Origin: Patescibacteria group bacterium
GTDB taxonomy: Bacteria; Patescibacteriota; Patescibacteriia; Buchananbacterales; UBA6539
NCBI GenBank assembly: GCA_041662625.1
Contig: JBAZSB010000002.1
Coordinates: 12,024 to 76,023 of the forward strand
Reading direction: 5' to 3'
DNA length: 64,000 bases
Part shown: positions 12,701-44,195 of the stretch, piece by piece
Layout of the letters: every line of letters begins with the position of its first letter
How positions within the stretch are numbered: the first letter of the stretch is position 1
Made by a program: the position numbers and the translations under genes
Notes under the pieces: generated by a model
Databases searched by the model: none
Seen by the model: only the letters and a program-made list of their open reading frames with translations
Told to the model about the DNA's origin: nothing

Positions 12701-14176
12701 CAGCTGATAGGTGCAGCTATGGCTTGGCTCCAATGGATAATCAGTCCACTGAGTAAAGCCACTGACCAGTTTGGCAATCTTTACCCCGTCACGAAACAGC
12801 CAGAGAAATGGCGCATACGGGTAGGCCGTGTTTTGCCACTGGAGGAACGCCGAGTTGTAGCCATCAGCAGTACCTTGCAGGGTAAAGCTGCCGGGATTTC
12901 CCGGGCCAGTAATGGTCACGATATTGGAGACATCAAGCGCGCCAGTACTATTGGACATGGCAAAGACTTGATATTGCCGTGTGCTGCCTGTTGGTAGGCC
13001 TGCTTCAGTGAATTCCCGAAGTGTGGTCTGGCCGATTTCAGTGCCGTTGGCAAACACGGCGTAGTAGTCGCATGTTGGACCACCTTCAATCCAAATAGTG
13101 TTGTGGTTTTCTGACATCGGTTTGCCGGTCAGAGTTAGGGCACTGAATTCACCGGTTGGCTCAAACACTTCAACCAGTGTACCGTCCAGACGGTGAAGTT
13201 CTACGCTGCCTGATTTGCAGTACCCGTTTTGGAAACACTGCTGGCCGTTAATGAAGTCACTGGTCGGACAGCCTAACACTGTTCCATCGTCCATCGGCAT
13301 ATCCGGACCATAGCGCTGGCAACCGCGAGTGTTGTCCCAACGACCGTAGCGGTAGAACTCCCAATACTTGCCGGGGATCAGGTAGGCCTGACTGCCAAAA
13401 AGCGGATCATAGATGATGATCGACTCTTCACCTCGGGCGTTGCGGAAGTTCTGGCAGAGGTAGCGGAACGGAGCCCAGTTATGGACAAAGATTCCGTCAC
13501 CGTCATCGATTGGCCAACCTACGCCATCCAAACCACCGTGGCGGTTGTAGCAGTTATTGATTTGTCGATCAATCGCTTGACCATCAGCAAACCGACCAAT
13601 GACCGAAAAACCAGGATAGTGTAACCAGCCTTTGACGAAGTAGTTAGTACTAAGTCGTTCTCCCGGCTCTACTTTCCAAGTGCCATCAGCGTTCTGACTC
13701 ATTGGCAACAGACGGAATGGCTTGGTGGAATTATTGATGTTTTGTTCAAACACCTCAATTCCATCCCTCATCACCCGTGAAACAATACCGACGTGGCCAG
13801 AACCACTATCGCAGGATGTCCAACCGTTATTCCACCAAATGATAAAGTCGCCAATCTGGGGCGGTACCACACTGCTATCGTTGGAAACAGCATGGTAACC
13901 CAACCTCTCCGGCAACCGCAACCACATATTGGCTGCACATCCGACTTCGTAGTCAATCACCTTATGGTACGCGGCAGCGAATCTCTTGGCCAAGTTAACA
14001 CACTGGTATTCCGCTTGGCTGGCCGTACAAGGCTTCTCGGTGCAGTCACCATTAGAATACGCGGTGACTCCCATGAAAGAGCCAATTTCGCGTCCGTAGT
14101 CCGGACCACAGTCGTTCGGGCACTGACCTGACGCCACTGTCGCCACAAACATAACCACACAAAATATCGTTCTCAT
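9779..14176 (-). CDS. Giant secreted cell-wall hydrolase-like surface protein: signal peptide - CHAP domain - Ig-like/CARDB repeats - Pro-rich linkers - two C-terminal PPC (pre-peptidase C-terminal) domains
   Basis: Start moved to MRTIFCVVMFVATVASG (RBS GGAGGT 9 nt upstream). The CHAP motif has a Cys near YQCVNLAKRF and a His at SGSGHVGIV. NEGDNSxST repeats are CARDB-like, linked by PPPPTPAPTPT. The two C-terminal ~130-aa units (AWDPAD...RYDWFRVYL...YNDDSGGN...YYLRIRA) are PPC-like. GC is ~57% in an AT-rich backbone. Confidence 0.75.
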   Translation of the reverse strand: MRTIFCVVMFVATVASGQCPNDCGPDYGREIGSFMGVTAYSNGDCTEKPCTASQAEYQCVNLAKRFAAAYHKVIDYEVGCAANMWLRLPERLGYHAVSNDSSVVPPQIGDFIIWWNNGWTSCDSGSGHVGIVSRVMRDGIEVFEQNINNSTKPFRLLPMSQNADGTWKVEPGERLSTNYFVKGWLHYPGFSVIGRFADGQAIDRQINNCYNRHGGLDGVGWPIDDGDGIFVHNWAPFRYLCQNFRNARGEESIIIYDPLFGSQAYLIPGKYWEFYRYGRWDNTRGCQRYGPDMPMDDGTVLGCPTSDFINGQQCFQNGYCKSGSVELHRLDGTLVEVFEPTGEFSALTLTGKPMSENHNTIWIEGGPTCDYYAVFANGTEIGQTTLREFTEAGLPTGSTRQYQVFAMSNSTGALDVSNIVTITGPGNPGSFTLQGTADGYNSAFLQWQNTAYPYAPFLWLFRDGVKIAKLVSGFTQWTDYPLEPSHSCTYQLAAVTASELVFGWSNEVTVTTEATPPPPPTPAPTPTTLRINLTQTTWQYATDGWATAQVFDQYGNEMTGVQVLFISSSPSVFVISGDNGYIIANNIGTAETWIELYDDRSIQSERVTVTVVEKLPDPEPPPQPPFPEAPLRLVAGLTEDSTGPYLPYVCPRITYTVENPTDQVVTYQGPSLFPYRLPENVWVDFSSYMSTPVTLQPGQTKSGSVGSSYVSTEPGDYYLVACVRINDVWHVINQAAEGCQVKVGFKVINEADLKAQLKFVSLELATAEVHTGDPLCIQVGIINDGDVNINTPFVLTVGIAGQSSQAIEIDGLSHGGVYYHTFNLGIQAEGSYKVDAYVDSTGVIAEYNEGDNSESTIIQALPPPAQPNLTLANLSVSPAELRVGGTATVSGVMSNSGNEASGVCQLAISFSGQTATVDLPAIPAGGSVPFSVNFNLTAEGTQTVTAVVDSGNVVAESNEGDNSASASVTVLPPRRADCVIMNCSVDPLDPWTGDPIKVTIVAGNIGPVDAPAFNVGLTWNNFFLKQRLPALASGQTAEVIFDLDHCDSSGIFTWRAYADCDSEVSEEDESNNEGGVTFEVISPLELVPIPQLTIIGSEEYSTSSGNWTRYLLSISNWAEYPDRIFSSAYCVTCGLNTSAARTWVEIYEAKPDGSRRRIYGFCALGKASDLTRIWFAVPLGQAPPPQVFIILQDKVDGTVLESNITTIPTPIIDAWDPADGIVSSATVLNNPTTAEQNHGPHTLSNMDRYDWFRVYLVSGRRYNFNTTGGTGNDYAELYSNATGTTRVAYNDDSGGNLQFSFTYAPTVSGWYYLRIRASSVGSNCSYSLKYRDLAVIPPPPANDAWDPADNIVSGSTVLNNPTATEQAHGPHTLSSADRYDWFRVYLVSGRRYNFNTTGGIGDDYGELYSNSAGTVRVAYNDDSGGNLQFSFTYKPNSTGWYYLRIRAYSVGSSCSYSLKYRDLGP
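9790..10565. repeat. Tandem duplication of ~390 bp (2 units, ~88% identical) encoding the two PPC domains
   Basis: 9790-10175 versus 10180-10565 share long identical runs, for example cccggtacttcagcgagtagct...ggaggtaataccagcc...gccagttgtgttgaaattgtagcg.cggccgcttaccagatacac.ctgaaccagtcgtagcgatc. Confidence 0.85.
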
Positions 14177-26492: not shown

Positions 26493-26594
26493 ATTACCTC
26501 CTGGCTTTAGTATAGCATGGATAAGAAATTAAGAAAATAAGAAATTAATAAATTAAGACTGAGTTAGGCTTTAATTTTTTAATTTTTTAATTTC

Positions 26595-27062
26595 TTATTT
26601 TTTTACTTTAAATACCAGCCAATTCTTTTTTTGCGCCGTAAACTGGGTTAAAACATAAACTCCCCGGAGCTTTTTGCCCTTCAATTCAAACTTTAAAGAC
26701 TTGGATGTATGTTCCAACAGCTTAAATTTGCCTTTGTCCAAAATTTCCACCAGGCCGGCACCGTAATTACCTTTCGGGATTACTCCGGCAAAATTAATAT
26801 AGGCAACTGGATGATCTTCTACGGCAACAGCCAAATGTTTGACTCCGGCAATAGTTGGAATACCTTTGGGTACTGCCCAAGATTTTAAAACAACCGGACC
26901 TTTAATAATTTTATCTGGCAATTCCAACCTGAAATCATAATGCAAATGTGAGGCTGAATGTTTTTGGACAACAAAACGTGACTGGCTTTTTATTTTAGCT
27001 TGTGCCTTAGGCTCCGGCGTTTTACTAAACTTTCTTTTCTTTTGATATTTTTCTAAAGCCAT
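26595..27062 (-). CDS. Stand-alone LigD-type 3'-phosphoesterase (PE) domain protein
   Basis: RFVVQKHSASHLHYDFRLE...LKSWAVPKG matches the LigD PE active-site block (HxxHxHYDFRLE, WAVPKG); 155 aa. Confidence 0.7.
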   Translation of the reverse strand: MALEKYQKKRKFSKTPEPKAQAKIKSQSRFVVQKHSASHLHYDFRLELPDKIIKGPVVLKSWAVPKGIPTIAGVKHLAVAVEDHPVAYINFAGVIPKGNYGAGLVEILDKGKFKLLEHTSKSLKFELKGKKLRGVYVLTQFTAQKKNWLVFKVKK

Positions 27063-27068
27063 ACAAAT

Positions 27069-27130
27069 AGAAATCAGAAATTAGAAATCAGAAGAATAAT
27101 TCTGATCTCTGATCTCTGATTTCTGATCTC
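27069..27130. repeat. Long imperfect inverted repeat built of tandem AGAAATCAGA units
   Basis: agaaatcagaaattagaaatcagaagaat | aattctgatctctgatctctgatttctgatctc, lying between two minus-strand genes. Confidence 0.7.
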
Positions 27131-27134
27131 TGGA

Positions 27135-27540: not shown

Positions 27541-28842
27541 TTAGCCCATGTAGTTGTCGAGTTCTTCCCGACGCATCTGATCGAAGGCATACACTGCCGG
27601 ATTGGTCTGCCCCAGAATCTGCATCGCCGCTCCGATCGCGTTGCCTTCGGGCCAAGTCGTCAGATTCGGCGTCTGCGATGGCAGGTGTACGCTTGACCAA
27701 AGATCATCCGGAAATTGCTCGAGAGTCGCTGGGACCGAAATCACTGGCCAAGGACTGTGAGCCGCGACGATCGGACCCAGACCATTGGACCGGCCGGCCT
27801 TGACCACGATGACGCCACCTTGCGGATAGTCATAGAACAGCCGTTCCAGACGCTGCAGCCCCTCAACCGGACTCTTGTGGCCGGAAGCCACGATCCGTTC
27901 AACGGTGACTCCAGGCAACTGGGGAACTTTTGGTGCTTCATCCTTGTCGGACCCAAGCCAGACAACCAGCGCCTGTCTCGGGAGCACCAAGCGTTCGGCC
28001 ATCTGGGCGACGTAACGGTAGTTCTCTTCGACTTGGCCAAGGACAGCAGCGCCACCATCGCGGAACACCTGCTTATCGAGCGGTTTGCCATTTTCCCAAA
28101 GACGCCAACTGTCGTTGTCCACGACATCGGAAACTCGGAGTTCGCTGTCGGCTTCGATCTTGATGTCAAGCCATGTGAGGCCAAAGTTCGCCCAGGCCCG
28201 CTCAAGGATCAAAGACACCCGGCGAACCAATTGATCAAGCTTGGCCATATCCGCCAGATCGGTGATGACCCCACTAGCAGGAATCTTGGCAAACGGGCTA
28301 ACCCGATGTCGACTCTCACCCTCGCCCTCTTCATGCCAGATCGGCTTCTTGGGCAAGGCAAGATCCCAGGTATCCTTGAAGGGATCAAGGATCAACGGAT
28401 CGTCGCAGGGTAGTGATAGGCCTTTCCAATCTCGACCAGTCGTCTTGAGGAAGAACTCAACCAACAACCGGTGAAAACGGTACGGCTTGGTTGGATCAGC
28501 CGTTCGAAGCTGGGGATTGCGCATCAGGAAACTGCCAACTCCCAGCCGTCGGGCGACAATCTCCAGCAGCAACATCAGCGACCGCAGCGCGACAAACTCC
28601 GTTTCGGAAATCTGCTCCACGTAAGCCACCGGCACGTCGCAAGTCCGAAGAAGTTCGAAAACGCGGCAAGTGGTTATGGTAGCACATTGGGCTTTGGACC
28701 CAAACTTCTGGGTAAAACTCGGGTCATCATGGGCAGTGATGTCCGAACCATTCCTGACGATCACCAGATCGTCTCGGCCTTCTACTGCGAAGATACCCTT
28801 GGTTTTGCCCTTGGCTATCTGCTTACCTAGTGTATACTCCAT
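27541..28842 (-). CDS. purC-purE: Bifunctional SAICAR synthetase (PurC) - N5-CAIR mutase/AIR carboxylase (PurE) fusion, PAICS-like
   Basis: The N-terminal half has PurC blocks (GKTKGIF, DDLVIVRNGSDITAHDD, WLDIKIE). The C-terminal half has PurE blocks (VVWLGSDKDE, IVASGHKSP similar to SAHRTP, AGRSNGLGPIVAAHSPWPVISVP). GC ~60%. Confidence 0.75.
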   Translation of the reverse strand: MEYTLGKQIAKGKTKGIFAVEGRDDLVIVRNGSDITAHDDPSFTQKFGSKAQCATITTCRVFELLRTCDVPVAYVEQISETEFVALRSLMLLLEIVARRLGVGSFLMRNPQLRTADPTKPYRFHRLLVEFFLKTTGRDWKGLSLPCDDPLILDPFKDTWDLALPKKPIWHEEGEGESRHRVSPFAKIPASGVITDLADMAKLDQLVRRVSLILERAWANFGLTWLDIKIEADSELRVSDVVDNDSWRLWENGKPLDKQVFRDGGAAVLGQVEENYRYVAQMAERLVLPRQALVVWLGSDKDEAPKVPQLPGVTVERIVASGHKSPVEGLQRLERLFYDYPQGGVIVVKAGRSNGLGPIVAAHSPWPVISVPATLEQFPDDLWSSVHLPSQTPNLTTWPEGNAIGAAMQILGQTNPAVYAFDQMRREELDNYMG

Positions 28843-28863
28843 GGCATTCCTTTCTCCGACTTT

Positions 28864-29397
28864 TCAGCCGATCTGTTCCTGGTCTTCCGAATCTTCCGGT
28901 CGACCTTCCGATCTCTGACCACAACGGTCACAACCGTCACACTGGTGACCCACGGCAAACCGTTTCAACTCATCGAGCATCTCCAGCACTCCCGCTGCGG
29001 GTTGACCGGATTTCTCGAGTACGGCATCAGCGACCTTGATCGAACATTTGACGCGTAGCGCCACGGCAATGGCGTCGCTGGGCCGCGAATCAACCTTGAC
29101 GACCCCGCCTGCGGTTTTCAACTCGATATAGCCCAGGAAAATCCCGTTACCAGTGAGTTGGTTGATGCCAACTTCCAAAACCTCAGCATCCAAGCCAGCC
29201 AAGATGTTCACGATTAAGTCGTGGGTCATCGGCCTTATAGGCACTTGACCAGCCAAGGCCATACCGATGGCCACAGCTTCGGCTGGACCAATCATGACTG
29301 GTAAGATCAGAGCCGCCGCTTCACTGTGTAACAACACTGTTGGTCGACCTTGGCTATCCTGGACTACAGCCAACGCATGGAGTTCTTGTCTATCCAT
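28864..29397 (-). CDS. Bifunctional-nuclease (BFN/DUF151) family protein with a Cys-rich acidic C-terminal tail
   Basis: The PSDAIAVALR motif and domain length match BFN; the C-terminus carries CDGCDRCGQ. Confidence 0.55.
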   Translation of the reverse strand: MDRQELHALAVVQDSQGRPTVLLHSEAAALILPVMIGPAEAVAIGMALAGQVPIRPMTHDLIVNILAGLDAEVLEVGINQLTGNGIFLGYIELKTAGGVVKVDSRPSDAIAVALRVKCSIKVADAVLEKSGQPAAGVLEMLDELKRFAVGHQCDGCDRCGQRSEGRPEDSEDQEQIG

Positions 29398-29476
29398 CGC
29401 ATTCTCTCCTTATGTGGAGTAAGGGTGGGCCAGCCCGGCAAAGGACCGGCCCACACCAGTTTCAGGTTGGAGAACT

Positions 29477-30745
29477 CTACTCCGGCACTTTCCCGTCGGG
29501 ATAAAGGACCGAGTGGCCCTTGCCCTGCGAGATCAGCGACCGGTACGTTTCGAGTGCCGTTTGAACGGCCGGATCAGTCAGGTCCAGTGTCTGGCGTTTC
29601 TCGGCGGCCATATAGGCGGCCTGACAGAGCCTGGTGATTTCCAAGCCGTATTCCCAGTTCAACAGTCCGTCATGGCCTTCACGGAAAGCATCACGGGCAT
29701 CGACCTGCTCATCAACGTAACCGTAAAGGTCGGGTTCGTTGGGCTGAACAGCCAGAAGGCCACGCGAAGCCGTCGACTTCTCCAAGGCCCCCTCGGCATC
29801 GGTCACGGCTTCGGCCGCGGCATCGCCGATGAAGACCTCAAGCGACGAACGCAAGGAGTTGACCTCCAAAGCATAGCCCGGGCCCATTCCTTCCATCGAG
29901 AGTCGGAGGCCCTGCTTGTCGTACATCCAAGAAGTGGCAAACTGAGCCACAACACGCTGCCGGGTCTCCGGATTCTCAAAGGTGACCAGACCGGTGGCGA
30001 AGTCTTCGGCCGGAACCAACGCGTAGTCAACGCCCATCCTCTTCAGGAGTTGGGCTCGATACTTGGGCTGGCCCCACTTCAGAAGCAGGGTATCGGCCCC
30101 AATACTAACCGGCCTGAGGAATCTCAGATCCTTGCCGACCGGTGTCAAAAGACGCCAAAGCACCGCGATGGTGTGGCAAGCCATGTCCGAAAGGACACCG
30201 CCACCTTGCCGGGTTGCATCCCAGAACCAACCCTCGTGGGGTCCAGAATGTTCTTCGCCGCCACGAGCCAAAACCAACGGCCCCATCTTTCCTTGGACGC
30301 GAGCCAGACCTTTCAGCCCTGCTTTGATGGCTTTCATGTGGATCTGGTTCTCGAAGTACGAGGTCGGGCAGCCGAGAGTCTTGGCCAGCTCAACCATACG
30401 GCGAGCCTCGGTAATGGTTCGGCCCAACGGCTTTTCGCAGATCAGCCCTTTGGGTTTCTTACCCAGTCTCGTCGCCGCATCGACGACCTGTTCCATCAAT
30501 TCAACGCGGAACGGATTCGGGGCGAAATTGGCAATCACGTCGCAATGCTCGACAAGATCGGCGACGCTTTTGTATACTACGCAATCAATTTCGCCGGTAG
30601 CGGTGGCCTTAGCGGCCAGTTGTTCCGCACCCTTCAGGGCGTGGACACCGCCGAATTCCAAACCAGGTACCAACTGGTTGGCGGCCTGCTGGAAATTGGC
30701 AACAAATCCAGCACCCATCGATCCTAGTCTGAGGATTTCCTTCAT
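29477..30745 (-). CDS. Gfo/Idh/MocA-family NAD(P)-dependent oxidoreductase
   Basis: N-terminal Rossmann fold, the EKP motif (LICEKPLGRTITEARRMVELAK) and length 422 aa; RBS AAAGGAGAG. Confidence 0.75.
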   Translation of the reverse strand: MKEILRLGSMGAGFVANFQQAANQLVPGLEFGGVHALKGAEQLAAKATATGEIDCVVYKSVADLVEHCDVIANFAPNPFRVELMEQVVDAATRLGKKPKGLICEKPLGRTITEARRMVELAKTLGCPTSYFENQIHMKAIKAGLKGLARVQGKMGPLVLARGGEEHSGPHEGWFWDATRQGGGVLSDMACHTIAVLWRLLTPVGKDLRFLRPVSIGADTLLLKWGQPKYRAQLLKRMGVDYALVPAEDFATGLVTFENPETRQRVVAQFATSWMYDKQGLRLSMEGMGPGYALEVNSLRSSLEVFIGDAAAEAVTDAEGALEKSTASRGLLAVQPNEPDLYGYVDEQVDARDAFREGHDGLLNWEYGLEITRLCQAAYMAAEKRQTLDLTDPAVQTALETYRSLISQGKGHSVLYPDGKVPE

Positions 30746-30873
30746 CAGTCTCTCCTTTCAATCAAACACTGTCTCCAATCTCTCTCCCGCCCTGAAACAG
30801 ATCAGGCCGGAACACTTCTTTTTGTTTCTTTGCCGTTTCTCCTTCCTTATCTTTTGTAACTTCCCTCGCTTGG

Positions 30874-30946
30874 TTGTGAAAAAACAAGTCTTTCCCTCCC
30901 TTTGGAAAAGACTATTAAAACTGGGTTTAATTTAACAAAAAAAAGC
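30874..30946. promoter_or_regulatory. Conserved ~73-bp upstream element, copy 1 (second copy at 34510..34590), containing the palindrome AGTCTTTCC-N9-GGAAAAGACT
   Basis: ttgtgaaaaaacaagtctttccctccctttggaaaagactattaaaactgggtttaatttaacaaaaaaaagc compared with ttgtcaaaaaaacaaagtcttcccctcacgttggaaaagacttttccctacaaaactggctttaatttaacaaaaaaaagc. Both lie 5' of minus-strand operons. Confidence 0.6.
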
Positions 30947-30982
30947 TATAAAGTCAATCACATGATGCTAATCTACAATTTA

Positions 30983-31014
30983 TGCGAATGATAATAATAT
31001 TCGCAACATTCGCA
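30983..31014. promoter_or_regulatory. Perfect inverted repeat TGCGAAT-N9-ATTCGCA plus a third ATTCGCA half-site (candidate operator)
   Basis: tgcgaat gataataat attcgca ac attcgca; AT-rich and lies ~240 bp upstream of the oxidoreductase start. Confidence 0.5.
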
Positions 31015-31226
31015 TACTACTCGCATCCATTATCATTATATTAAAAAAAGGACCAGACAACCTTCTTCATCTCGCCGAATCCGCTTTCAAGCGGAGAAGG
31101 CGGGACTTGGTCGTTATGGTCCCTTGGATCTCAATAGTGTACAAAACCCTCCTTAGTCTCGCCGTAGTCCGAAGGACGTAGGCGGATTAGTCTCGCCGTA
31201 GTCCGAAGGACAAAGGCGGACTTGGG

Positions 31227-32924
31227 TTAGTGGCGAAAGCCCCGGCACTTCTTGTCTGGCATCAGGTACAGCGTCATACCGGCCGCAGTCAGTTCCTCCT
31301 GAACTTTTCCGTCGTTGACCGAACCGGACGAAGCGAATAAGACGGTGATTCCTGCTTCGTGCAACACCAGACCAGCATCACCGAAAGGCAAGAAGCTATC
31401 CGAATAGGCAGCGGCTTCCACCAACCCTACTTTTTCCTCGTCCTGTCTGTTGGCTTCACCGCGCTCATAGCCTCGAACTGCCAGCTCTGCCGCACCGACG
31501 CGATCCATCCGACCGCATCCGTTGCCTTCCAGTTCGTAGACGATCATATCTCTGACTTGCCTCTGCCTCACAATGGTGATGGTATTGCTCTTGGCCTGAG
31601 AGCCGATTGCCCAACCAGCCTTGAGACAGCCTTCCAATTCTGGTCGGCGAGGTCCGATGATTTGCAGATCCGGATCGTCAAACGACGGCACAAACTGGCT
31701 CGGCGGATAATGAGTGTAGTCCCCGCCACCGACATGGGTAAAGATCGGGGTATTATCCATAGGTAGATTGCCAGCCAGCGCCGGATTCAACATCACACGG
31801 CACTTGCCTGTCTTTTTGCGCGCCAGTATTTCGATCGCATTTTCGTCAGCGCTGGGCGCAAACACAGCATCCAGAATCCGGCGCTGTCCTTTCGGCATAT
31901 GGTAATACAGCAGCATGTCAGCGATCTCGGCAGTGATATGGAAGTTGAACAGCAGTACGCCGCCATGAATCGCCAATTCATCGCCTTCGATCATGCTTCT
32001 GACCGCCTCGACGATGGCATCTCGTCCTTTGCCTTTGACAATCCCGGCACCGCAGATATTGACGTGCTTGTCCGCCAAGGCAAAACTGTGTGTGTCTGCC
32101 GGAAATACTGCCGCCAGCCGTGTCATGGTTTCGGTCAGCGTATGGAGATCATCCAAGTTGTTGCAGCTTGGACTCATGCCTTCAACTCCGACGAAGCGGC
32201 TCGGCGCCAACTCCCAATCACCACCACCGGTATACAAGGCGGCTGGCACTTGGTGAGGATTGGGTCCATAAGCGAGCGACAAAACCCGTTCGCCGCTGAT
32301 GCCGGCGAACTGTCCGTCGCTGATGAAATCTGCTGCTGTCAGGTAATGTCTGGCAATCATTGCCAGCGCTTTGCCGGCGAGGCGCTTTCGGGTCTCGGGT
32401 AAGACATCGCCATCGTTTTTCACCATTTCTTCCCAGACCTTGGGAATGTCAGATTCATCGACAACGACGATGCGCAAACGCTTTGAACCCATCGCTGCTT
32501 GCGCCGGTCCACCGACGTCAACCTTTTCCAGCACCTCCTCAAACGATAGCGCTCCACTGTCGATCGCGGCCTGGAGATCGTAGAATCCGCCGACGAATAT
32601 CTCGCAAAGTGGCCCGCCGAGTTCACGCAGCTCATCAAGGTGTTTGGGTTTGGCTGGTTTGGCACACAGTGCACCAAGTACCTTGGGATGCAGCGATACT
32701 ACGCCGTGGTCGAACATCGGCGGCGAGCCAATGGTCGCATAGTTGTTACAGGTAATACCACTCCCTTCGAGGAAACAGGTTGTGCCGTCCGACCCATAGA
32801 GGGTCAATCCCAATGATTCATGCAGATAGCGAGCAAATGCTGCAATCCCTTCTGTCTTGTCAGCAACGCTTAAAAACGCTGCCCTGACAATTCCTGAATC
32901 TGCCGTACTCACTTTATCACTCAT
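31227..32924 (-). CDS. purH: Bifunctional AICAR transformylase / IMP cyclohydrolase
   Basis: N-terminal MGS-like block FLSVADKT...GSDGT...LHPKV and the C-terminus ...SDSFLPFGDAG...VLFASSGSVNDG...RGFRH, which matches the PurH C-terminus (ASDAFFPFRD...QPGGSIRD...RHFRH). Confidence 0.8.
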   Translation of the reverse strand: MSDKVSTADSGIVRAAFLSVADKTEGIAAFARYLHESLGLTLYGSDGTTCFLEGSGITCNNYATIGSPPMFDHGVVSLHPKVLGALCAKPAKPKHLDELRELGGPLCEIFVGGFYDLQAAIDSGALSFEEVLEKVDVGGPAQAAMGSKRLRIVVVDESDIPKVWEEMVKNDGDVLPETRKRLAGKALAMIARHYLTAADFISDGQFAGISGERVLSLAYGPNPHQVPAALYTGGGDWELAPSRFVGVEGMSPSCNNLDDLHTLTETMTRLAAVFPADTHSFALADKHVNICGAGIVKGKGRDAIVEAVRSMIEGDELAIHGGVLLFNFHITAEIADMLLYYHMPKGQRRILDAVFAPSADENAIEILARKKTGKCRVMLNPALAGNLPMDNTPIFTHVGGGDYTHYPPSQFVPSFDDPDLQIIGPRRPELEGCLKAGWAIGSQAKSNTITIVRQRQVRDMIVYELEGNGCGRMDRVGAAELAVRGYERGEANRQDEEKVGLVEAAAYSDSFLPFGDAGLVLHEAGITVLFASSGSVNDGKVQEELTAAGMTLYLMPDKKCRGFRH

Positions 32925-32954
32925 ACTCGTCTCTCTCCTTTTCTCTCTCTGTTC

Positions 32955-34481
32955 CTAGGCCACAATGGCCAAGGGTTTCATTGCCTTCAATCCATTCTTC
33001 ATTTCTCTTCGCGCATCCTTGATCGCATCACCAACATAGGCTGCCGGATGCTTCAGTAGGTAAATCTCGCGTGGAGTTAATCCTTTCCAGACGCGCCGGA
33101 ACTTAGGATCAGCCCCGTCAGACTCCATATATTGCTCGGCTGCAACGCAAAGATTGGGCGCACCAGCTTTGACCCGGGCCACTAGTTCCTTCTTGACGAA
33201 GGTGTGAGCGCCTTCAAAGCCTTGCCGCTGCAATGCGTTGTGGAGTAATTCCGCTAACGATGCTGGTCCGAATATCTTGACCCAGTGCAGGCAGCGTTCT
33301 TCGTTGAACGCCAGAGCGCCCATCTGCCGATGCACGCTGTACAACTCCTGGGTAAAGTACTCAAGGGCTTCGATGAAAGTGCGCATCACCGAGGACCACC
33401 GCAAATCGCGTTGGAAGTTGCTCCCGCGCGTCAGCCACGGTCTTAAGGCACAACTCAACACGATTGCATCGGCGCCAATGGCGTTCTCAGCCCGAATGGG
33501 GTTGGCTTCCTTGGCTGCTCCCGCCGAAGAGGTCGAGGTAATACCGACATCCTTTGAAGGAATGACCTCGCCGAGTTCAGGCATGTGCAAGATCCGGAGA
33601 TCATCACACAGACTCATCATCGGTCCGCTGATCGCGACGAGCTCGCTGTAAAAACGAACCGTGTGATGAATAGGCGGAACCTGACTAGCACCTCTGGCTA
33701 CCGGCAAGTCAAGAATATTCATCAGCGTCCGTTCGGCTTTTTTGGGAATACCGACGGCGCGCTGCGATGCGGCGGTACCGACGAAACCACAGAACTTGCC
33801 CGGCACCGCCAAGGCAGCCCGTTGCAGTTCCACAGCGCAGTCAATGTATTGCTGATGGCCACAAGCCAGATAAAATCCGACTGTACCTGGTATGGCCGGC
33901 TGCAAGTGGGTGCGAAACATCTCCCGCATCTTCAGGTTTTCACCAATCTTGGCTCGCCAAACTTCATCGAGTGCCATCATCTTTGGCCAAATAATCAGAC
34001 TGAACACAACTCGAAGCTGCAAGGCATATGCCGTCGAAATCGTGTCATAGGAAGTTGCCGTATAGTGCAACCACTTCCAAAGTCCTTTGGGAAGATAACG
34101 GCGCATCAATGCCAGAAGCGCCAGGATATCGTGGCCGATTCCTTTGGTCTTCTTCTTTCTGTCTCCGTATTCGAGGCGATCCTGTTTTGTTGTGGTGACA
34201 TTCTTGAGGACGTAGAGCAAACGCTCTTTCGTCAGCAATTTGGCGTCCTTTTCCGGCATGATTCCGATAATGGCTAACGCCACCATCCAGAACCATTCCA
34301 CCAGGACCAACCAAAGTGCCCATTGGTCATAGCCGAGGTACGGAACCAGTTCCGGTTGCTGTTCTGCATATCTGTGATCCATATGCATCACCAGCACCCG
34401 CCGTCGATCCTTGGCTAAAACCGCGAAATACGCAATCGCGGCCGCTAACATCTCTCGGGCTTTATCAATAGTCATACGCAC
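32955..34481 (-). CDS. Adenylosuccinate-lyase-like protein (fumarate-lyase superfamily), divergent with a hydrophobic N-terminal extension
   Basis: A fumarate-lyase signature-like block TSTSSAGAAKEANPIRAEN (consensus GSSxMPxKxNP), length 508 aa and operon context with purH/purC-E; RBS AAGGAGG. Confidence 0.5.
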   Translation of the reverse strand: MRMTIDKAREMLAAAIAYFAVLAKDRRRVLVMHMDHRYAEQQPELVPYLGYDQWALWLVLVEWFWMVALAIIGIMPEKDAKLLTKERLLYVLKNVTTTKQDRLEYGDRKKKTKGIGHDILALLALMRRYLPKGLWKWLHYTATSYDTISTAYALQLRVVFSLIIWPKMMALDEVWRAKIGENLKMREMFRTHLQPAIPGTVGFYLACGHQQYIDCAVELQRAALAVPGKFCGFVGTAASQRAVGIPKKAERTLMNILDLPVARGASQVPPIHHTVRFYSELVAISGPMMSLCDDLRILHMPELGEVIPSKDVGITSTSSAGAAKEANPIRAENAIGADAIVLSCALRPWLTRGSNFQRDLRWSSVMRTFIEALEYFTQELYSVHRQMGALAFNEERCLHWVKIFGPASLAELLHNALQRQGFEGAHTFVKKELVARVKAGAPNLCVAAEQYMESDGADPKFRRVWKGLTPREIYLLKHPAAYVGDAIKDARREMKNGLKAMKPLAIVA

Positions 34482-35552: not shown

Positions 35553-35608
35553 GATTGAAAAAACTCCTCTCTTCTGCTAAGCTTAGATAGTTAAATGTTA
35601 AATGTTAA

Positions 35609-36703
35609 TTGTTAATTGTTATTATGTCGTTTAGTATCGGCATCGTCGGCCTGCCTAACGTCGGCAAATCAACACTTTTCAAAGCCCTGACCAAAAAACA
35701 GGTTGATGCTTCTAATTATCCTTTTTGCACCATTGACCCAAACATTGGAGTGGTGGCCGTGCCTGATGAACGAATTGATAAATTGTCAGTGATGTCAAAA
35801 TCAGCCAAAACGATTTATACCACCATTGAATTTGTTGACATCGCCGGCCTAGTTAAGGATGCTCATAAAGGTGAAGGGCTGGGTAACCAATTTTTAGCCA
35901 ACATCCGGGAAGTTGATGCCATTGTTCAAGTCGTCCGGCAGTTTTCCGATAAAAATGTCATTCATGTCGCCGGCAAGGTGGACCCCGAGTCGGACAAAGA
36001 AACAATTAGTCTGGAATTAATTTTTGCTGATTTACAAACTTTGGGAAAAAGAATCAGTAAAAACCAAAAAGATTTACATGCCAATTTAAAAGAAGCAAAA
36101 GAGATTCAGCCGGTTTTGGAAAAATTAAAAACCGGCTTTAACGCCGGCAAGCTGGCTTCGGAAATCATTACTGATGAAAAAGAAAAATTATTAATCCGCG
36201 ACTTGAATCTTTTGACCATCAAACCAATGATTTATGTTTTGAATGTGGATGAAGACAAAGTTTATCCCGCCTCCGCTAAAGCTACGGCGGGCAAGCAAGA
36301 AACAGATTACATTACCATTTCGGCAAAAATTGAATCGGAATTAGCCGAACTGCCCGAGGTCGAAGCTAAAGAAATGCTCAAAGAACTCAAGCTGGAATCT
36401 TCAGGTTTAGATAAACTGATCAAAAAATCATACGAAATTTTAGGCTTGATTACTTTTTTGACTACCGGTCCGACCGAATCACGCGCTTGGACAATCAAAA
36501 AAGGGACAAAAGCGCCCCAGGCCGCCGGCGTGATCCACACTGATTTTGAAAAAAACTTTATCCGCGCTGAAGTGATTAACTGGCAAAAATTGTTGGAAGT
36601 TGGCTCTGAAGCTAAGGCCAAGGAATTAGGCTTAATCCGGATTGAAGGCAAAGATTACGTGATGCAAGACGGCGACACGGTTTATTTTAGAACTAACGCC
36701 TAA
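35609..36703 (+). CDS. ychF: Ribosome-binding ATPase YchF (Obg-like GTPase family)
   Basis: G1 GIVGLPNVGKSTLF, G3 DIAGLV, NxxD, and a C-terminal TGS domain (RAWTI..GTKAPQAAGVIHTDFEKNFIRAEV); 364 aa. Confidence 0.9.
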   Translation: MLIVIMSFSIGIVGLPNVGKSTLFKALTKKQVDASNYPFCTIDPNIGVVAVPDERIDKLSVMSKSAKTIYTTIEFVDIAGLVKDAHKGEGLGNQFLANIREVDAIVQVVRQFSDKNVIHVAGKVDPESDKETISLELIFADLQTLGKRISKNQKDLHANLKEAKEIQPVLEKLKTGFNAGKLASEIITDEKEKLLIRDLNLLTIKPMIYVLNVDEDKVYPASAKATAGKQETDYITISAKIESELAELPEVEAKEMLKELKLESSGLDKLIKKSYEILGLITFLTTGPTESRAWTIKKGTKAPQAAGVIHTDFEKNFIRAEVINWQKLLEVGSEAKAKELGLIRIEGKDYVMQDGDTVYFRTNA

Positions 36704-36985: not shown

Positions 36986-38158
36986 TTAGCGCTGGAAGAC
37001 ATAAATCTGCCGCCAGACTTTTTGGCCTTCGCGACTATAAACTAATTTATCTTTATTCAACTGGGTAAAACCCAGTTTTTTTATTTCTGGCAAAACCGGC
37101 AGTTCCAAAACTTCCTTACCGAGGCGAAAAGCCGGAAAGATAATTACCACCTTGCTACCGGGATTTAAAATCTTTCTGAACTCACCAAATGCCGCATCAT
37201 AAAGCTTTGATAATTCTTCAACAATTTCTGATATCTGTTTTCTGTCTTCTGAACCCCGAAGCGGCGGGCCAAGGTATGGCTCAGTCACCACCGCATCAAC
37301 CTGCTGGACATATTTAGAAATCTGCTTTACATCCGCCTTGATAATTTGGAATTTGGAATTTGAGATTTGGAATTTATTTGGAATTTGACCCATTCGACTA
37401 CGCTCAGGGTCACCTTGAGCAGAGGCCGAAAGGTGAGATTTGGAATTTGTAATTTTTAAAAGCCATTCTAAGTTTTTCTTTGTATCCTTAACCGCTTTAT
37501 CAGAAATATCAGAACCAATCATTTTGTAGCCAAGCAAAAGTCCTTCTTGCAAAACTGTACCGGATCCGCAAAAGGGATCTAAAATTGTTGCCCCCCTTGG
37601 CAGCTGGGCTAAATTAATCATAATTTTTGCCAGCTTCGGCGGCATTGACCCGGATAACAAATCACGGACCGGCCGGCCAAAGTCGCGCTTACTATATTCT
37701 TCAAATTCCTGAACCGCACAAGTCTCGCCTAGCCATTTATTACCCAAAACCAAAAATTCCGCACATTGATTTTTTGAAACAACAACTGAAGACAAGGCCT
37801 TGTCTTTACTGGTAACTAAACGACAACTGATACCAGCTTCTTTTAAGTCCTTTTTAATTTCCATGCCAAAATTATCCGGCTTAGCCTCATAATAACTAAT
37901 GCCGAAATTGAGCTTTGTTTCTTTTTTAAGGGCTTTTAATTTTTCAACTGTCACCTTTCGACTGATTTGATTACCAATAATTTTACCGACTTTTATTGTC
38001 CCGCCAAGCCGACTCAAAACTTCAGCGCAATCAAAATCGTCATTTTCGATAATTAAAAAAGAGCCGGTTTCAGCAATAATTTTGGCAGGGGGTAAAACTG
38101 CCAAGATTTCTGCCACGGAAAGCTTTGGGTTGTGTCCTAAGATGAAAACGTATTGCAT
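36986..38158 (-). CDS. THUMP-domain RNA methyltransferase (Trm11/RlmL/UPF0020 family) carrying an in-frame repeat-element insertion
   Basis: Motif I DPFCGSGT, motif IV VVTEPYLGPP and an N-terminal THUMP-like region. Residues ~SKSHLSASAQGDPERSRMGQIPNKFQISNSKFQI are encoded by the TTTGGAATTTG repeat block at 37326-37455. Confidence 0.7.
   Translation of the reverse strand: MQYVFILGHNPKLSVAEILAVLPPAKIIAETGSFLIIENDDFDCAEVLSRLGGTIKVGKIIGNQISRKVTVEKLKALKKETKLNFGISYYEAKPDNFGMEIKKDLKEAGISCRLVTSKDKALSSVVVSKNQCAEFLVLGNKWLGETCAVQEFEEYSKRDFGRPVRDLLSGSMPPKLAKIMINLAQLPRGATILDPFCGSGTVLQEGLLLGYKMIGSDISDKAVKDTKKNLEWLLKITNSKSHLSASAQGDPERSRMGQIPNKFQISNSKFQIIKADVKQISKYVQQVDAVVTEPYLGPPLRGSEDRKQISEIVEELSKLYDAAFGEFRKILNPGSKVVIIFPAFRLGKEVLELPVLPEIKKLGFTQLNKDKLVYSREGQKVWRQIYVFQR
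37326..37455. repeat. TTTGGAATTTG-type tandem repeat element (copy inside the methyltransferase CDS)
   Basis: tttggaatttggaatttgagatttggaatttatttggaatttg ... gagatttggaatttgtaattttt; related copies at 43600-43665 and 44040-44094. Confidence 0.8.
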
Positions 38159-38241
38159 ATTATTGGCTTAGTAACTTACCAACTTAAAAACTTACTAACT
38201 TAAGTATACCATATAAAATTAAAAACTATTAAATTTAAAAT

Positions 38242-39187: not shown

Positions 39188-39688
39188 CTAATTACCTTCT
39201 CGTTGTTTTGTTAAACTTAATGCTCAAAATCAACTTGGCTTAAACGCTAAAATTATTTTGAAAAATTAAGTGTAAACAAAACTATTAATTATTAATGGCT
39301 ATATACTAGCATACTTTTAAAATTTTGTCAATAATCCACAAATCTCCTAGATGCTAAAGGGGGAATTGACTTATTTTTTAACCTATGATAAGCTATTTAA
39401 GATCCTGAATAATCCATAAGTCGGATTCAGGCATTAGGCTTAACAATTAAACCTTTCCCCGTGTTACCCTTCTAACTTAGATCGGGTGACCATTACCTTA
39501 TCCAATTCTGCGATAAGGAAAGGCGTTTTTCAAACAGTTAACAGTTAACTGCCAAGTGTTAATTGTTATTAACATAGCGCTGGGAAAATACCGAGCGTTT
39601 TTAATAAATTAAAATAACAAGGATTTAGCAAAATTAGGAGTTGAGATCCAAAACCTACTTCCTACTACCTACTTCCTACTACCTAACT

Positions 39689-40153
39689 ATGACTAACCAC
39701 TACGAACTGCTTTATTTGGTAGGCGCTAATTACACCGATGAAGAGTTGATGCCAATTAAAGAAAAAGTAAAAGAATTACTCAAAAAATTTGGCGGCGAGA
39801 TTACGCTGGAAGACAGTTTGGGCAAAAAGAAACTGGCTTATCCCATCAAAGGTAACCACCAAGGTTATTACTTGCTGATGGAATTCAATATAGACGGGGC
39901 TAAGCTGAAAGAGTTAAACCAAAACCTTAAACTCACTAGTGAAGTTTTAAGGCATGTTGTTGTCAGCAGAAAAATTGAGACTCCCAGCTTACTGAAAACG
40001 ACTGCCGCTAAATTAAAGACTGCTGAACAAAAAGAGAGAGAAGTTAAAATCACACCCGAGGAAGAACGTAAAACCGAACCAGAAAAAGGTAAAATTAAAT
40101 TGGAAGACCTAGACCAGCGGCTTGATGAGATTTTGGAAGGTGATATAATGTAG
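39689..40153 (+). CDS. rpsF: 30S ribosomal protein S6
   Basis: Start at MTNHYELLYLV...; S6 fold pattern and the rpsF-ssb-rpsR operon context. Confidence 0.85.
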   Translation: MTNHYELLYLVGANYTDEELMPIKEKVKELLKKFGGEITLEDSLGKKKLAYPIKGNHQGYYLLMEFNIDGAKLKELNQNLKLTSEVLRHVVVSRKIETPSLLKTTAAKLKTAEQKEREVKITPEEERKTEPEKGKIKLEDLDQRLDEILEGDIM

Positions 40154-43599: not shown

Positions 43600-43665
43600 A
43601 TTATTAAGCACCAAATTCTAAATTACAAATTCCAAACAAATCTCAAATTACAATCTTCAAAACAT
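43600..43665. repeat. TTTGGAATTTG-type repeat element (intergenic copy, opposite orientation)
   Basis: caaattctaaattacaaattccaaacaaatctcaaattacaatc is the reverse complement of the GGAATTTG(T/A) units. Confidence 0.7.
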
Positions 43666-43677
43666 TTAGTTATTATT

Positions 43678-44094
43678 CTACTTGGTTTTTTCTAATATTG
43701 CAGCCAGTATCCTCAGTAATTCCATATTTTCCTGTAATATCGGTTTGATTTCTTCTTGAAGTTGAGTGTTAGCTTCGATCATTAAATTCAGCCAATAAAT
43801 AGTTTCTTTGGCTTCTTTGCGGCTGATCCTTAATCGAAATTGAAAATCTTTTTTTGTTTCTGTCTCATTAGCTTCACGATAATTAGCGCCAATTGATGTG
43901 CCTGACCTTATAGCCTGGCGGCCTAATACAAAATTGATATCATTTTTAGGTAAGACCTTAGCTAGTCTAATAAGTCTTTTGCTAAATTCCAAGGTCCTAT
44001 CTTCTAAGTCATACCGTTTTGAATTTTGAACATTAGTGCTTGGAATTTGTTTGGAATTTGAGATTTTGGATTTGTAATTTTCAACATAGCCCAT
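43678..44094 (-). CDS. Four-helix-bundle protein of the '23S rRNA intervening-sequence protein' family (TIGR02436-like)
   Basis: ...SIGANYREA...DFQFRLRISRKEAKETIYWLNLM matches the family core (GANI.EA....dF..fl.iA.GS..E...wl). The N-terminal ~20 aa (ENYKSKISNSKQIPSTN) are encoded by the repeat element, so the true start is uncertain. Confidence 0.6.
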   Translation of the reverse strand: MGYVENYKSKISNSKQIPSTNVQNSKRYDLEDRTLEFSKRLIRLAKVLPKNDINFVLGRQAIRSGTSIGANYREANETETKKDFQFRLRISRKEAKETIYWLNLMIEANTQLQEEIKPILQENMELLRILAAILEKTK

Positions 44095-44195
44095 ACTACT
44101 TTATTTAATAGTTAGTTTGGCACTATGTTGATTATATTTTAATAAGTAAATCGAACCCCTAAAAACCTTCCCCTAAGAACCTAAAAACCTACAAC

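What the first reader, a model, noticed from the sequence alone, without database searches (positions are those of the whole stretch)
37326..37455. TTTGGAATTTG tandem-repeat element inserted in-frame inside a THUMP methyltransferase gene and forming the 5' end of a second gene
A ~130-bp block of GGAATTTG(A/T) units lies inside the open reading frame of the THUMP RNA methyltransferase, between motif I (DPFCGSGT) and motif IV (VVTEPY). It adds ~35 residues (..QIPNKFQISNSKFQI..) without breaking the frame. Related copies lie between recA and the next gene (43600-43665, inverse orientation) and at the very 5' end of the four-helix-bundle gene (44040-44094). There they encode its first ~20 residues (..NYKSKISNSKQIPSTN..), which resemble the methyltransferase insert peptide. 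Intragenic, frame-preserving spread of a simple repeat is unusual. It may mark hypervariable or slippage-prone sites, or an element selected to be translation-neutral.
Basis: seen in the sequence. Interest (0 to 1): 0.55.

Follow-up and report, generated by a model that had tools for sequence, protein, structure and literature searches.

The report
Palindromic repeat inside a methyltransferase loop
A tRNA methyltransferase gene of a tiny-genome (Patescibacteria) bacterium carries, in a floppy surface loop, a 7-base simple-repeat array into which a 45-base GC-rich palindromic repeat has been inserted in frame. This shows how repeat DNA can write new disordered segments into conserved proteins.

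Summary
The gene (36986..38158, minus strand) is an intact Trm11-like tRNA methyltransferase.

(1) Its alphaB-beta3 loop is encoded by a heptanucleotide tandem array in every ortholog examined at DNA level. The unit differs by lineage: (TTACAAG)4, (ATTTCAA)4, (CTCAGAG)4, and here about 8 AAATTCC/AAATCTC units.

(2) This version of the array is 41/45 nt identical to the 5' arm of the PF05635 four-helix gene at 43678..44094. That gene is bracketed by inverted arms, and it travels with them in other genomes.

(3) The only discrete recent insertion is 48 nt: a 45-nt GC-rich palindrome (37389-37433) plus a TGA duplication. A related ortholog (77% identical) lacks exactly these 48 nt.

The palindrome belongs to a cross-phylum family (Acidobacteriota, Patescibacteria, others). 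In that family the flanking triplets are complementary to the hairpin loop.

The insert is 16 codons with no stop. It lies in a region of pLDDT below 50, and an independent assembly reproduces it.

The best reading is a near-neutral, in-frame colonisation of a permissive loop, like the Rickettsia palindromic elements. Phase variation, translational bypass and artefact are unlikely. I rate it a new variant of a known kind, of moderate interest.

The parts
36986..38158 (-). Trm11-like (THUMP-type) tRNA m2G methyltransferase gene, 390 aa, intact
   Evidence: The ORF is intact. Pfam PF01170, E 4.5e-14. AlphaFold2 model: mean pLDDT 89.1, pTM 0.87. Top Foldseek matches are archaeal Trm11 structures 5e71 and 6zxw, E 4e-23 to 1e-20, TM-score 0.76 normalised to the target. 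phmmer against PDB gives 6zxw at 1.4e-10.
37434..37456 (-). Gene-proximal part of the coding heptamer array (AAAATTACAAATTCCAAATCTCA, residues ~K235-S241), including one copy of the duplicated TGA/TCA triplet (37434-37436)
   Evidence: Modelled as the end of helix 220-243.
37389..37433 (.). 45-nt GC-rich nested palindrome, CCCATTCGACTACGCTCAGGGTCACCTTGAGCAGAGGCCGAAAGG on the + strand. Loop TCA at 37410-37412. Read on the minus strand it encodes most of HLSASAQGDPERSRMG (residues 242-257).
   Evidence: It is unique in the window. It folds as a hairpin as DNA, -9.1 kcal/mol, z -1.9. It is absent from ortholog L001 at exactly this point. It is a member of a family found in 74 genome loci. The residues it encodes have pLDDT below 50.
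37386..37388 (.). Second copy of the TGA triplet (TCA on the gene strand) that flanks the palindrome. It is complementary to the hairpin loop. The empty site in L001 has one copy only.
37342..37385 (-). Gene-distal part of the coding heptamer array (AATTCCAAATAAATTCCAAATCTCAAATTCCAAATTCCAAATTA, residues ~Q258-I272). Its end encodes strand beta3 (FQIIK, residues 270-274).
43678..44094 (-). PF05635 four-helix-bundle ('23S rRNA intervening sequence protein') gene, 138 aa
   Evidence: Pfam E 1.1e-18. Homologs. The N-terminal extension is conserved in homologs of 72-95% identity.
44036..44084 (-). 5' arm of the four-helix cassette, heptamer-structured. It is translated here as residues ~4-20. It is 41/45 nt identical to the methyltransferase loop array with the palindrome removed.
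   Evidence: It is 100% identical over 49 nt to L096. The same arm is untranslated 5' leader in L101.
43612..43662 (-). 3' inverted arm of the four-helix cassette, lying between the cassette and recA
   Evidence: Inverted repeat I1: 51-nt arms, 76% complementary. The arm is conserved downstream of the cassette in L096, L097 and L101, in different genomic contexts.
44095..44138 (-). Conserved leader upstream of the four-helix ORF (…ATAATCAACATAGTGCCAAACTAACTATTAAATAAAGTAGT), which travels with the cassette
   Evidence: The same block is upstream of the gene in L096 and L097, although the neighbouring genes differ.

Best explanation
Three layers of repeat DNA sit in one permissive protein loop.

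(1) Shown. The loop between helix alphaB and strand beta3 of this Trm11-like methyltransferase is encoded by a heptanucleotide microsatellite throughout the Patescibacteria orthologs read at DNA level. The arrays are perfect or near-perfect, but the unit differs between lineages. Inferred from this: the array turns over by slippage or conversion under a constraint on frame and approximate length only.

(2) Shown as similarity; the mechanism is inferred. In this genome and some others the array is an 8-unit AAATTCC/AAATCTC version. It belongs to the same sequence family as the inverted arms that bracket PF05635 four-helix cassettes. Most likely it was acquired, or homogenised, by short-homology recombination with those multi-copy arms.

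(3) Shown. A 45-bp GC-rich palindromic element, MITE/REP-like, then integrated into the array at a TCA triplet. The triplet now flanks the element on both sides, so 48 nt (16 codons) were added without a stop codon.

Inferred: the ribosome reads straight through, and the protein gains a 16-residue disordered segment. That segment lies on the face of the Rossmann fold opposite the SAM pocket, so it is neutral or nearly so. The element is there because only in-frame, stop-free insertions in tolerant loops survive selection, as with Rickettsia palindromic elements.

Inferred, weaker: integration involves pairing between the hairpin's 3-nt loop and the target triplet, and heptamer arrays are favoured landing sites.
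For: Layer 1, the array:
- L080 has (TTACAAG)4, L081 (ATTTCAA)4 and L003 (CTCAGAG)4, all perfect and all at the same codons. L001 and L004 have 8 units.
- Arrays of period 7 and 8 are enriched in the window: 5 and 3 observed, against 0.13 and 0 in simulations.

Layer 2, the link to the four-helix arms:
- The loop array is 41/45 nt identical to the four-helix 5' arm. For L001 the figure is 42/45, or 95% over 41 nt.
- The arms and leader are conserved around the four-helix gene in four different genomic contexts: next to recA here, after metK in L096, next to a TPR gene in L097, and between ruvA and ruvB in L101.
- L080 270-470 holds a copy of the arms without the ORF.
- The distribution of the 8-unit array disagrees with the protein tree.

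Layer 3, the palindrome:
- Alignment with L001 shows a clean 48-nt difference with TCA at both junctions.
- The family is found in 74 loci of several phyla.
- Flank, loop and flank triplets covary across at least 8 triplet versions.
- The Patescibacteria copies in L011, L015 and L022 also lie inside heptamer/octamer arrays, at the matching triplet.

Tolerance of the insert:
- pLDDT is below 50 for residues 242-261, while the fold is otherwise confident.
- All catalytic motifs are kept.
- About a dozen of 50 orthologs carry other GC-hairpin-type peptides in the same loop, three of them verified at DNA level.

Not an artefact: an identical independent assembly exists.
Against: - No other copy of the 45-nt element lies in the 64-kb window, and the rest of this genome could not be scanned. 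Mobility within this genome is therefore unproven.
- Only one filled/empty comparison supports the 3-bp duplication.
- The loop/flank complementarity could reflect a structural requirement (alternative 6-bp stems) rather than targeting.
- The array's similarity to the four-helix arms is between low-complexity sequences. Array identity exceeds gene-wide identity only for L001 (87% against 76%), not for L004 (76% against 77%). Convergence under the stop-free constraint is therefore not excluded.
- No expression or proteomic data show that the insert is translated.
- Neutrality is inferred from a predicted structure only.
Confidence: 0.7

Rival explanations
1. Pure in-situ microsatellite expansion. 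The whole block arose by replication slippage of a local simple repeat, with no imported element, and marks a slippage-prone hypervariable site.
For: The loop is a heptamer array in all orthologs read, with lineage-specific perfect units. Loop length and sequence vary widely.
Against: The central 45 nt are not repeat-derived. They are GC-rich, palindromic, absent from L001 at a clean junction, and belong to a family present in other phyla. The order of unit variants matches the four-helix arms. The two assemblies show no length variation.
Confidence: 0.12
2. Contingency locus. A heptamer array inside an ORF changes the frame with each unit gained or lost, so the methyltransferase would be phase-variable. 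Known examples are the heptanucleotide repeats of neuO and HMW1A.
For: The repeat unit is not a multiple of 3 and lies inside the ORF. Arrays stay perfect within lineages, which implies ongoing slippage or conversion. The literature analogues surfaced in the search (PMC13001214, PMC8262952). What they show is taken from my own knowledge; the papers were not read here.
Against: All ~120 listed orthologs of full length are in frame. The gene is a conserved housekeeping-type tRNA enzyme in conserved synteny with ychF and rpsF. Two assemblies are identical. In this genome the array is imperfect and interrupted, which reduces slippage.
Confidence: 0.07
3. A functional nucleic-acid element: an internal or antisense promoter, a terminator, an RNase III or protein-binding site, or a structured RNA. 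It would be kept in the gene for regulation, with the peptide as a by-product.
For: Heptamer arrays lie directly upstream of several start codons here (ychF, the methyltransferase itself, rpsF) and in L080. This resembles the TAACTGA repeats proposed as regulator binding sites (PMC4679880). The palindrome sequence is conserved across phyla. The G-T/G-U-compatible strand is antisense to the gene.
Against: No promoter-like or terminator-like site falls in 37326-37460. There is no Rfam match. The RNA fold of the sense strand is not better than shuffles, z -0.41. The core is absent from all other orthologs.
Confidence: 0.08
4. The insert is not in the mature protein. It would be removed by translational bypass, as in T4 gene 60 or the yeast mitochondrial byps, or at the RNA level.
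For: It is a GC-rich hairpin insert in AT-rich coding DNA flanked by identical triplets, which superficially resembles byps (PMC5009743).
Against: The TCA triplets are not in the reading frame. No stop or unused codon follows a take-off site. The insert is 16 sense codons, so no bypass is needed. No ribozyme or intron family matches.
Confidence: 0.02
5. Assembly or sequencing artefact, or a pseudogene.
For: Repeats often cause misassembly. One homolog record (P0059) ends inside this loop.
Against: An independent assembly is identical over 3173 nt. The ORF is intact with all motifs and a confident fold.
Confidence: 0.01

Closest known systems
Rickettsia palindromic elements (RPEs)
   Same: Palindromic repeats inserted in frame into unrelated housekeeping genes. 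They are translated as extra peptide segments compatible with the protein fold (PMC10969869, read).
   Different: RPEs are ~150 bp and restricted to Rickettsia. This element is 45 bp, occurs in several phyla, sits inside a microsatellite, and has flanking triplets complementary to its loop. There is no sequence relationship.
MITEs / REP elements (Correia, ERIC, REP-RAYT)
   Same: A small, non-coding, dispersed element consisting of terminal inverted repeats. Some genomes hold dozens of copies. There is a short flanking direct repeat.
   Different: It consists of little more than two ~21-nt arms and a 3-nt centre. No parent IS or RAYT was identified. The REP hallmark 5' GTAG is absent. The covariation of flank and loop is not a described MITE feature, to my knowledge.
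TAACTGA heptamer direct repeats of Beggiatoaceae, Cyanobacteria and Bacteroidetes, and Nostoc heptamer repeats
   Same: Tandem heptamers, mostly within a few nucleotides of start codons, including ahead of essential genes, with no known origin (PMC4679880; bioRxiv 10.1101/2022.06.06.494920). The window has such arrays before ychF, the methyltransferase and rpsF.
   Different: There, one unit dominates a genome. Here the unit differs from locus to locus, and one array is inside an ORF and is translated.
Tandem repeats of Borg elements that create intrinsically disordered regions
   Same: Perfect tandem repeats inside ORFs that evolve fast and add disordered protein segments (PMC9879509; abstract seen).
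   Different: This unit is 7 nt, so the peptide period is 7 residues cycling through all frames; whether Borg in-ORF units differ in this respect was not checked here. The host is a Patescibacteria chromosome and the site is orthologous across lineages.
23S rRNA intervening sequences carrying a PF05635 ORF
   Same: A four-helix-bundle ORF bracketed by inverted repeats able to form a long stem. The Pfam family is named after this arrangement; the IVS architecture itself is from my own knowledge.
   Different: Here the cassette lies between protein genes (recA side; between ruvA and ruvB in L101), not in rRNA. Its arms are heptamer-structured, and one arm is translated.

Membership tests
In-frame palindromic element of the RPE kind (functional class) | Palindromic repeat present in many copies | tested here: inconclusive
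   74 loci in other genomes, dozens per Vicinamibacterales genome. Only one copy lies in this 64-kb window, and the rest of this genome was not available.
In-frame palindromic element of the RPE kind (functional class) | Inserted within an ORF without a frameshift or stop, in a structurally tolerant position | tested here: met
   48 nt, 16 sense codons. pLDDT is below 50 in a loop between a confident helix and strand.
In-frame palindromic element of the RPE kind (functional class) | Sequence homology to the Rickettsia RPE families | not tested
Size (45 against ~150 bp) and host argue against homology.
MITE | Terminal inverted repeats and small size | tested here: met
   CCCATTCGAC..CGCTCAGGG and CCTTGAGC..GCCGAAAGG arms, 45 nt in all.
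MITE | Target-site duplication | tested here: inconclusive
   The filled site has TCA on both sides and the empty site in L001 has one TCA. This is a single comparison and the repeat is only 3 nt. The family-wide flanks are identical on both sides.
MITE | Related autonomous element with matching ends | not tested
   No transposase search was done around the family's loci.
REP / RAYT system | Conserved 5' GTAG tetranucleotide next to the hairpin, and an extragenic location | tested here: not met
   No GTAG at the foot of the hairpin. This copy is intragenic.
Simple-sequence contingency locus (phase variation) | Repeat-number polymorphism that switches the reading frame | tested here: inconclusive
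   Two assemblies are identical and all full-length orthologs are in frame. No read-level data.
Programmed translational bypass (gene 60 / byps) | Matching in-frame take-off and landing codons, with a stop or unused codon after take-off | tested here: not met
   The TCA repeats are out of frame and the used frame has no stop.
Trm11/THUMP tRNA m2G methyltransferase (host gene) | THUMP-type N-terminal domain plus a class I methyltransferase with motif I and an (N/D/E)PPY-like motif IV | tested here: met
   Full-length Foldseek match to aTrm11, E 4e-23. DPFCGSGT and TEPY motifs present. The Pfam THUMP model itself gave no hit. Substrate not tested.
PF05635 four-helix bundle protein | Pfam PF05635 match above the gathering score | tested here: met
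   67.8 bits against a cut-off of 33.8.

The most novel reading that the evidence does not exclude
A cross-phylum 45-bp palindromic element chooses, or is integrated at, a target triplet by pairing with its own 3-nt hairpin loop. In Patescibacteria it preferentially lands in heptanucleotide arrays. Those arrays are themselves dispersed as the arms of PF05635 four-helix cassettes. Together they would form a repeat system that repeatedly writes new disordered segments into the same loop of an otherwise conserved tRNA-modification enzyme, and into other genes.
Probability: 0.25. Interest if true: 0.75.

Novelty: new variant of a known kind. Interest (0 to 1): 0.55.

Why it matters
- In-frame colonisation of conserved genes by palindromic repeats is best known from Rickettsia. 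This case shows that it also happens in Patescibacteria, and that one loop of one enzyme has been hit independently in many lineages.
- It exposes a coding microsatellite whose unit is not a multiple of three, yet which persists at an orthologous site while its unit sequence turns over.
- It links the simple repeat to the arms of the abundant but unexplained four-helix (PF05635) cassettes.
- The flank/loop complementarity gives a concrete, testable clue to how a widespread small palindrome integrates.
- Practically, such inserts affect gene calling, domain boundaries and the assembly of metagenome-derived genomes.

Tried and rejected
- **Rfam and tRNA scans.** Rfam at gathering threshold on the whole window and at E<=1 on 37200-37600 gave nothing relevant. 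There are no tRNA or tmRNA genes.
- **Other copies of the core in the window.** None found.
- **Other copies in the source genome.** The metagenome scan for CGCTCAGGGTCACCTTGAGC returned 11 loci, of which only five are of the same family, and the source contig is not in that collection. The source genome is also not among the GTDB representatives.
- **Promoter and terminator scan.** No site inside the insert.
- **RNA structure of the sense strand.** Not better than shuffles.
- **Four-helix gene inserted into the methyltransferase loop in some ortholog.** The truncated homologs P0052, P0059 and P0068 give no such evidence. P0059 merely ends in the loop.
- **Arrays built by repeated 7-bp target duplications of the hairpin.** Rejected, because the window and L001 have the same number of units and differ only by the 48 nt.
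- **Translational bypass.** Considered and rejected.
- **Independent acquisition of the array from the arms.** Suggestive only. The array is more similar than the rest of the gene for L001 but not for L004.

Full report
**Observation.** The window is a Patescibacteria contig. The methyltransferase protein is 100% identical to an NCBI record named 'MAG: DNA methyltransferase [Patescibacteria group bacterium]'.

The motif TTTGGAATTTG with up to 1 mismatch occurs 14 times, against 5.7 expected, and no shuffle reaches 14. Nine of the 14 fall in three clusters: 37345-37449, 43612-43636 (inverse orientation) and 44039-44060. The first cluster lies inside ORF 36986..38158 (-), 390 aa, between DPFCGSGT (residues 194-201) and VVTEPY (290-295), and the frame stays open. 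A second, independent assembly (L100) is identical over 3173 nt, so the insert is not an artefact.

**The host gene.** Evidence that it is an intact Trm11-like, THUMP-type tRNA methyltransferase:
- Pfam gives PF01170.
- The AlphaFold2 model is confident, with pLDDT 89 and pTM 0.87.
- Its best structural matches over the full length are archaeal Trm11 structures 5e71 and 6zxw, with E from 4e-23 to 1e-20.

The gene sits in conserved synteny with ychF and rpsF-ssb-rpsR-efp in relatives.

**Anatomy of the block.** On the + strand it reads:
- simple repeat, 37342-37385;
- TGA, 37386-37388;
- a 45-nt GC-rich nested palindrome, 37389-37433 (CCCATTCGACTACGCTCAGGGTCACCTTGAGCAGAGGCCGAAAGG, with loop TCA);
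- TGA, 37434-37436;
- simple repeat again, to 37456.

The palindrome is unique in the window. Only the frame in use is open across the whole block.

**Layer 1: a coding heptamer microsatellite.** Most orthologs are 362-367 aa. The only strongly variable stretch of the alignment is the segment between KNLEWL and the xDV of motif III.

At DNA level this segment is a heptamer array in every ortholog I could read:

| Locus (protein) | Array in the loop |
|---|---|
| L080 (P0007, 364 aa) | (TTACAAG)4, perfect |
| L081 (P0019) | (ATTTCAA)4, perfect |
| L003 (P0003) | (CTCAGAG)4, perfect |
| L001 (P0006) | ~8 units of AAATTCA/AAATCTC type |
| L004 (P0002) | ~8 units of AAATTCA/AAATCTC type |

So the simple repeat is an old feature of this site whose unit turns over between lineages. 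It is not a recent 130-bp insertion.

A 7-nt unit cycles through all three frames, which gives the 7-residue peptide periodicity (SYKLQVT-SYK, NKFQISN-SKFQI). AAATTCC is stop-free in all six frames, and only 39 of 265 AT-rich heptamer classes are.

Arrays of period 7 and 8 are enriched in the window: 5 and 3 observed, against 0.13 and 0 in simulations. Most of the others lie immediately upstream of start codons, ahead of ychF, the methyltransferase itself and rpsF. The array before the methyltransferase start is also present in L080, with a related unit, (GGAAGTA)5.

**Layer 2: relation to the four-helix cassette.** Gene 43678..44094 (-) is a PF05635 four-helix-bundle protein. It is bracketed by imperfect inverted arms, 51 nt and 76% complementary.

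The same leader, 5' arm and 3' inverted arm accompany homologous genes in quite different neighbourhoods: after metK in L096, next to a TPR gene in L097-L099, and between ruvA and ruvB in L101. So the arms are part of a dispersed cassette.

In the common 120-aa form the 5' arm is untranslated leader (L101). In the 138-144-aa subfamily, including the gene in this window, the start codon lies upstream of the arm. The arm then encodes a conserved N-terminal extension.

L080 270-470 holds a copy of the arms without the ORF, enclosing small GC hairpins.

With the palindrome removed, the methyltransferase loop array matches the four-helix 5' arm at 41 of 45 positions without gaps. The L001 loop matches at 42 of 45.

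The 8-unit arm-like array occurs in orthologs that are not the closest relatives. With the variable loop left out, those proteins are 79% (P0002), 77% (P0006) and 67% (P0021) identical to the window protein. Closer relatives carry other arrays: P0003 at 86%, and P0004, P0005 and P0007 at 82%. This, and the higher identity of the array than of the gene for L001 (87% against 76%), suggest conversion or capture from the multi-copy arms. The excess is absent for L004, so convergence is not excluded.

**Layer 3: the palindrome.** Alignment with L001 shows that the window has exactly 48 extra nucleotides, with TCA (gene strand) at both junctions and a single TCA at the empty site.

A degenerate pattern for the core found 74 loci in species-representative genomes. 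Most are in Acidobacteriota/Vicinamibacterales, with dozens per genome. Others are in Patescibacteria (L011, L015, L022), Omnitrophica, Planctomycetota, Brocadiia and a Bacteroidales bin. There is also a nearly identical copy in L055.

The family consensus is X-CCC-TTCGAC-nn-CGCTCAGGG-X'-CCCTGAGC-nn-GTCGAAGGG-X, where the two flanking triplets X are identical and X' is their reverse complement. This holds for X = TCG, CGA, CCG, CGG, CCA, TAG, TGA and TCA.

In the Patescibacteria copies the element again lies within a heptamer or octamer array, at the matching triplet: an ATCAGCG array in L015 and a TGCGAAA array in L011 and L022.

Other orthologs of the methyltransferase carry different GC hairpins in the same array. 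Three were verified at DNA level, in L082, L083 and L084. About a dozen of 50 orthologs show such inserts by peptide. L003 carries a half-element in frame at another site.

**Effect on the protein.** The 16 residues HLSASAQGDPERSRMG (242-257) and their neighbours have pLDDT below 50. They lie between a confident helix (220-243) and strand beta3 (270-274). By the standard topology of class I methyltransferases, this end of the sheet faces away from the SAM pocket. That statement is established knowledge about the fold, not something measured here. All catalytic motifs are intact.

**Mechanism.**
- Shown: an ancestral coding array, a clean 48-nt in-frame insertion of a member of a dispersed palindrome family, and a location in a disordered loop.
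- Inferred: read-through translation and near-neutrality; survival because only in-frame, stop-free insertions in tolerant loops pass selection; and arm capture by short-homology recombination.
- More speculative: loop-to-target pairing during integration, with arrays as preferred targets.

**Rivals.**
- Phase variation is formally possible for a 7-nt unit but is unsupported. All orthologs are in frame, the gene is of housekeeping type, and the two assemblies are identical.
- A regulatory role has no support from the promoter/terminator scan, Rfam or folding.
- Bypass is unnecessary and its signals are absent.

**Comparison with known systems.** The closest functional analogue is the Rickettsia palindromic element (PMC10969869). 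The arrays resemble the TAACTGA and Nostoc heptamer repeats near start codons (PMC4679880). The creation of disordered protein segments by repeats parallels the Borg tandem repeats (PMC9879509).

I found no paper describing MITE-like or in-frame palindromic elements in Patescibacteria. That literature library is incomplete, so this is weak evidence of novelty.

**Verdict.** The feature is real and more structured than first described. It is a new variant of a known kind and of moderate interest.

Noticed in passing
window 35590-35621, 38160-38203, 39653-39685, 27065-27132, 26522-26609: Heptamer/octamer tandem arrays with a different unit at each locus (GTTAAAT, AACTTAC, ACCTACT, AAATCAG, TAAGAAAT) lie directly upstream of start codons: ychF, the methyltransferase, rpsF and another gene. 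Two of them (27065-27132 and 26522-26609) are arranged as inverted arrays that could form long hairpins.
   Followed up: partly
window 39630-39691: An AGGAG Shine-Dalgarno-like motif lies ~48 nt upstream of the likely rpsF start (ATG at 39689, MTNHYELLYLV), with the (ACCTACT) array in between. The listed ORF start (TTG at 39641) would translate the array.
   Followed up: no
L080 270-470: A MITE-like unit without an ORF: a left arm of AAATTAC/AAATTCC/AAATCTC units, two small GC hairpins (TCCGCCAAAGGACGGA and TTCGCCTCTGGCGAA), and an inverted right arm ending GGTGCTT. It lies upstream of rpsF in a relative.
   Followed up: partly
L101 1463-1945: A 120-aa four-helix (PF05635) gene, with its two arms, sits between ruvA and ruvB. 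This looks like a cassette inserted into an operon.
   Followed up: partly
L003 gene 678-1859, codons for SFDAAQDR: The closest ortholog has an in-frame ~27-nt insert, TCC TTCGACGCGGCTCAGGACAGG GAA, resembling one half of the palindrome family. It lies at a different site, in the N-terminal domain.
   Followed up: partly
L084 gene 315-1508, GFTQ…GFTQ: Ortholog P0031 has a second in-frame insert near the C-terminus, flanked by a duplicated GFTQ coding sequence (GGTTTTACCCAG / GGGTTTACCCAA).
   Followed up: no
window 31153-31220: Two tandem copies of a 34-nt GC-rich hairpin-forming unit (TTAGTCTCGCCGTAGTCCGAAGGAC.AAGGCGGA) lie just downstream of the gene 31227..32924 (-).
   Followed up: no
window 10001-14000 and 28001-34000: Blocks of 53-56% G+C in a ~40% G+C background, possibly acquired regions.
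   Followed up: no
window 9787-10534: A 390-nt tandem duplication: 1.9 copies, 79% matches, Tandem Repeats Finder score 981.
   Followed up: no
L011 4360-4440: Next to the palindrome, the same intergenic spacer holds other GC-rich hairpins (CCCTCTCCCGCGGGGAGAGGG and TCTTCTCCCGGCGGGAGAAGA). Several hairpin families therefore stack in Patescibacteria spacers.
   Followed up: no
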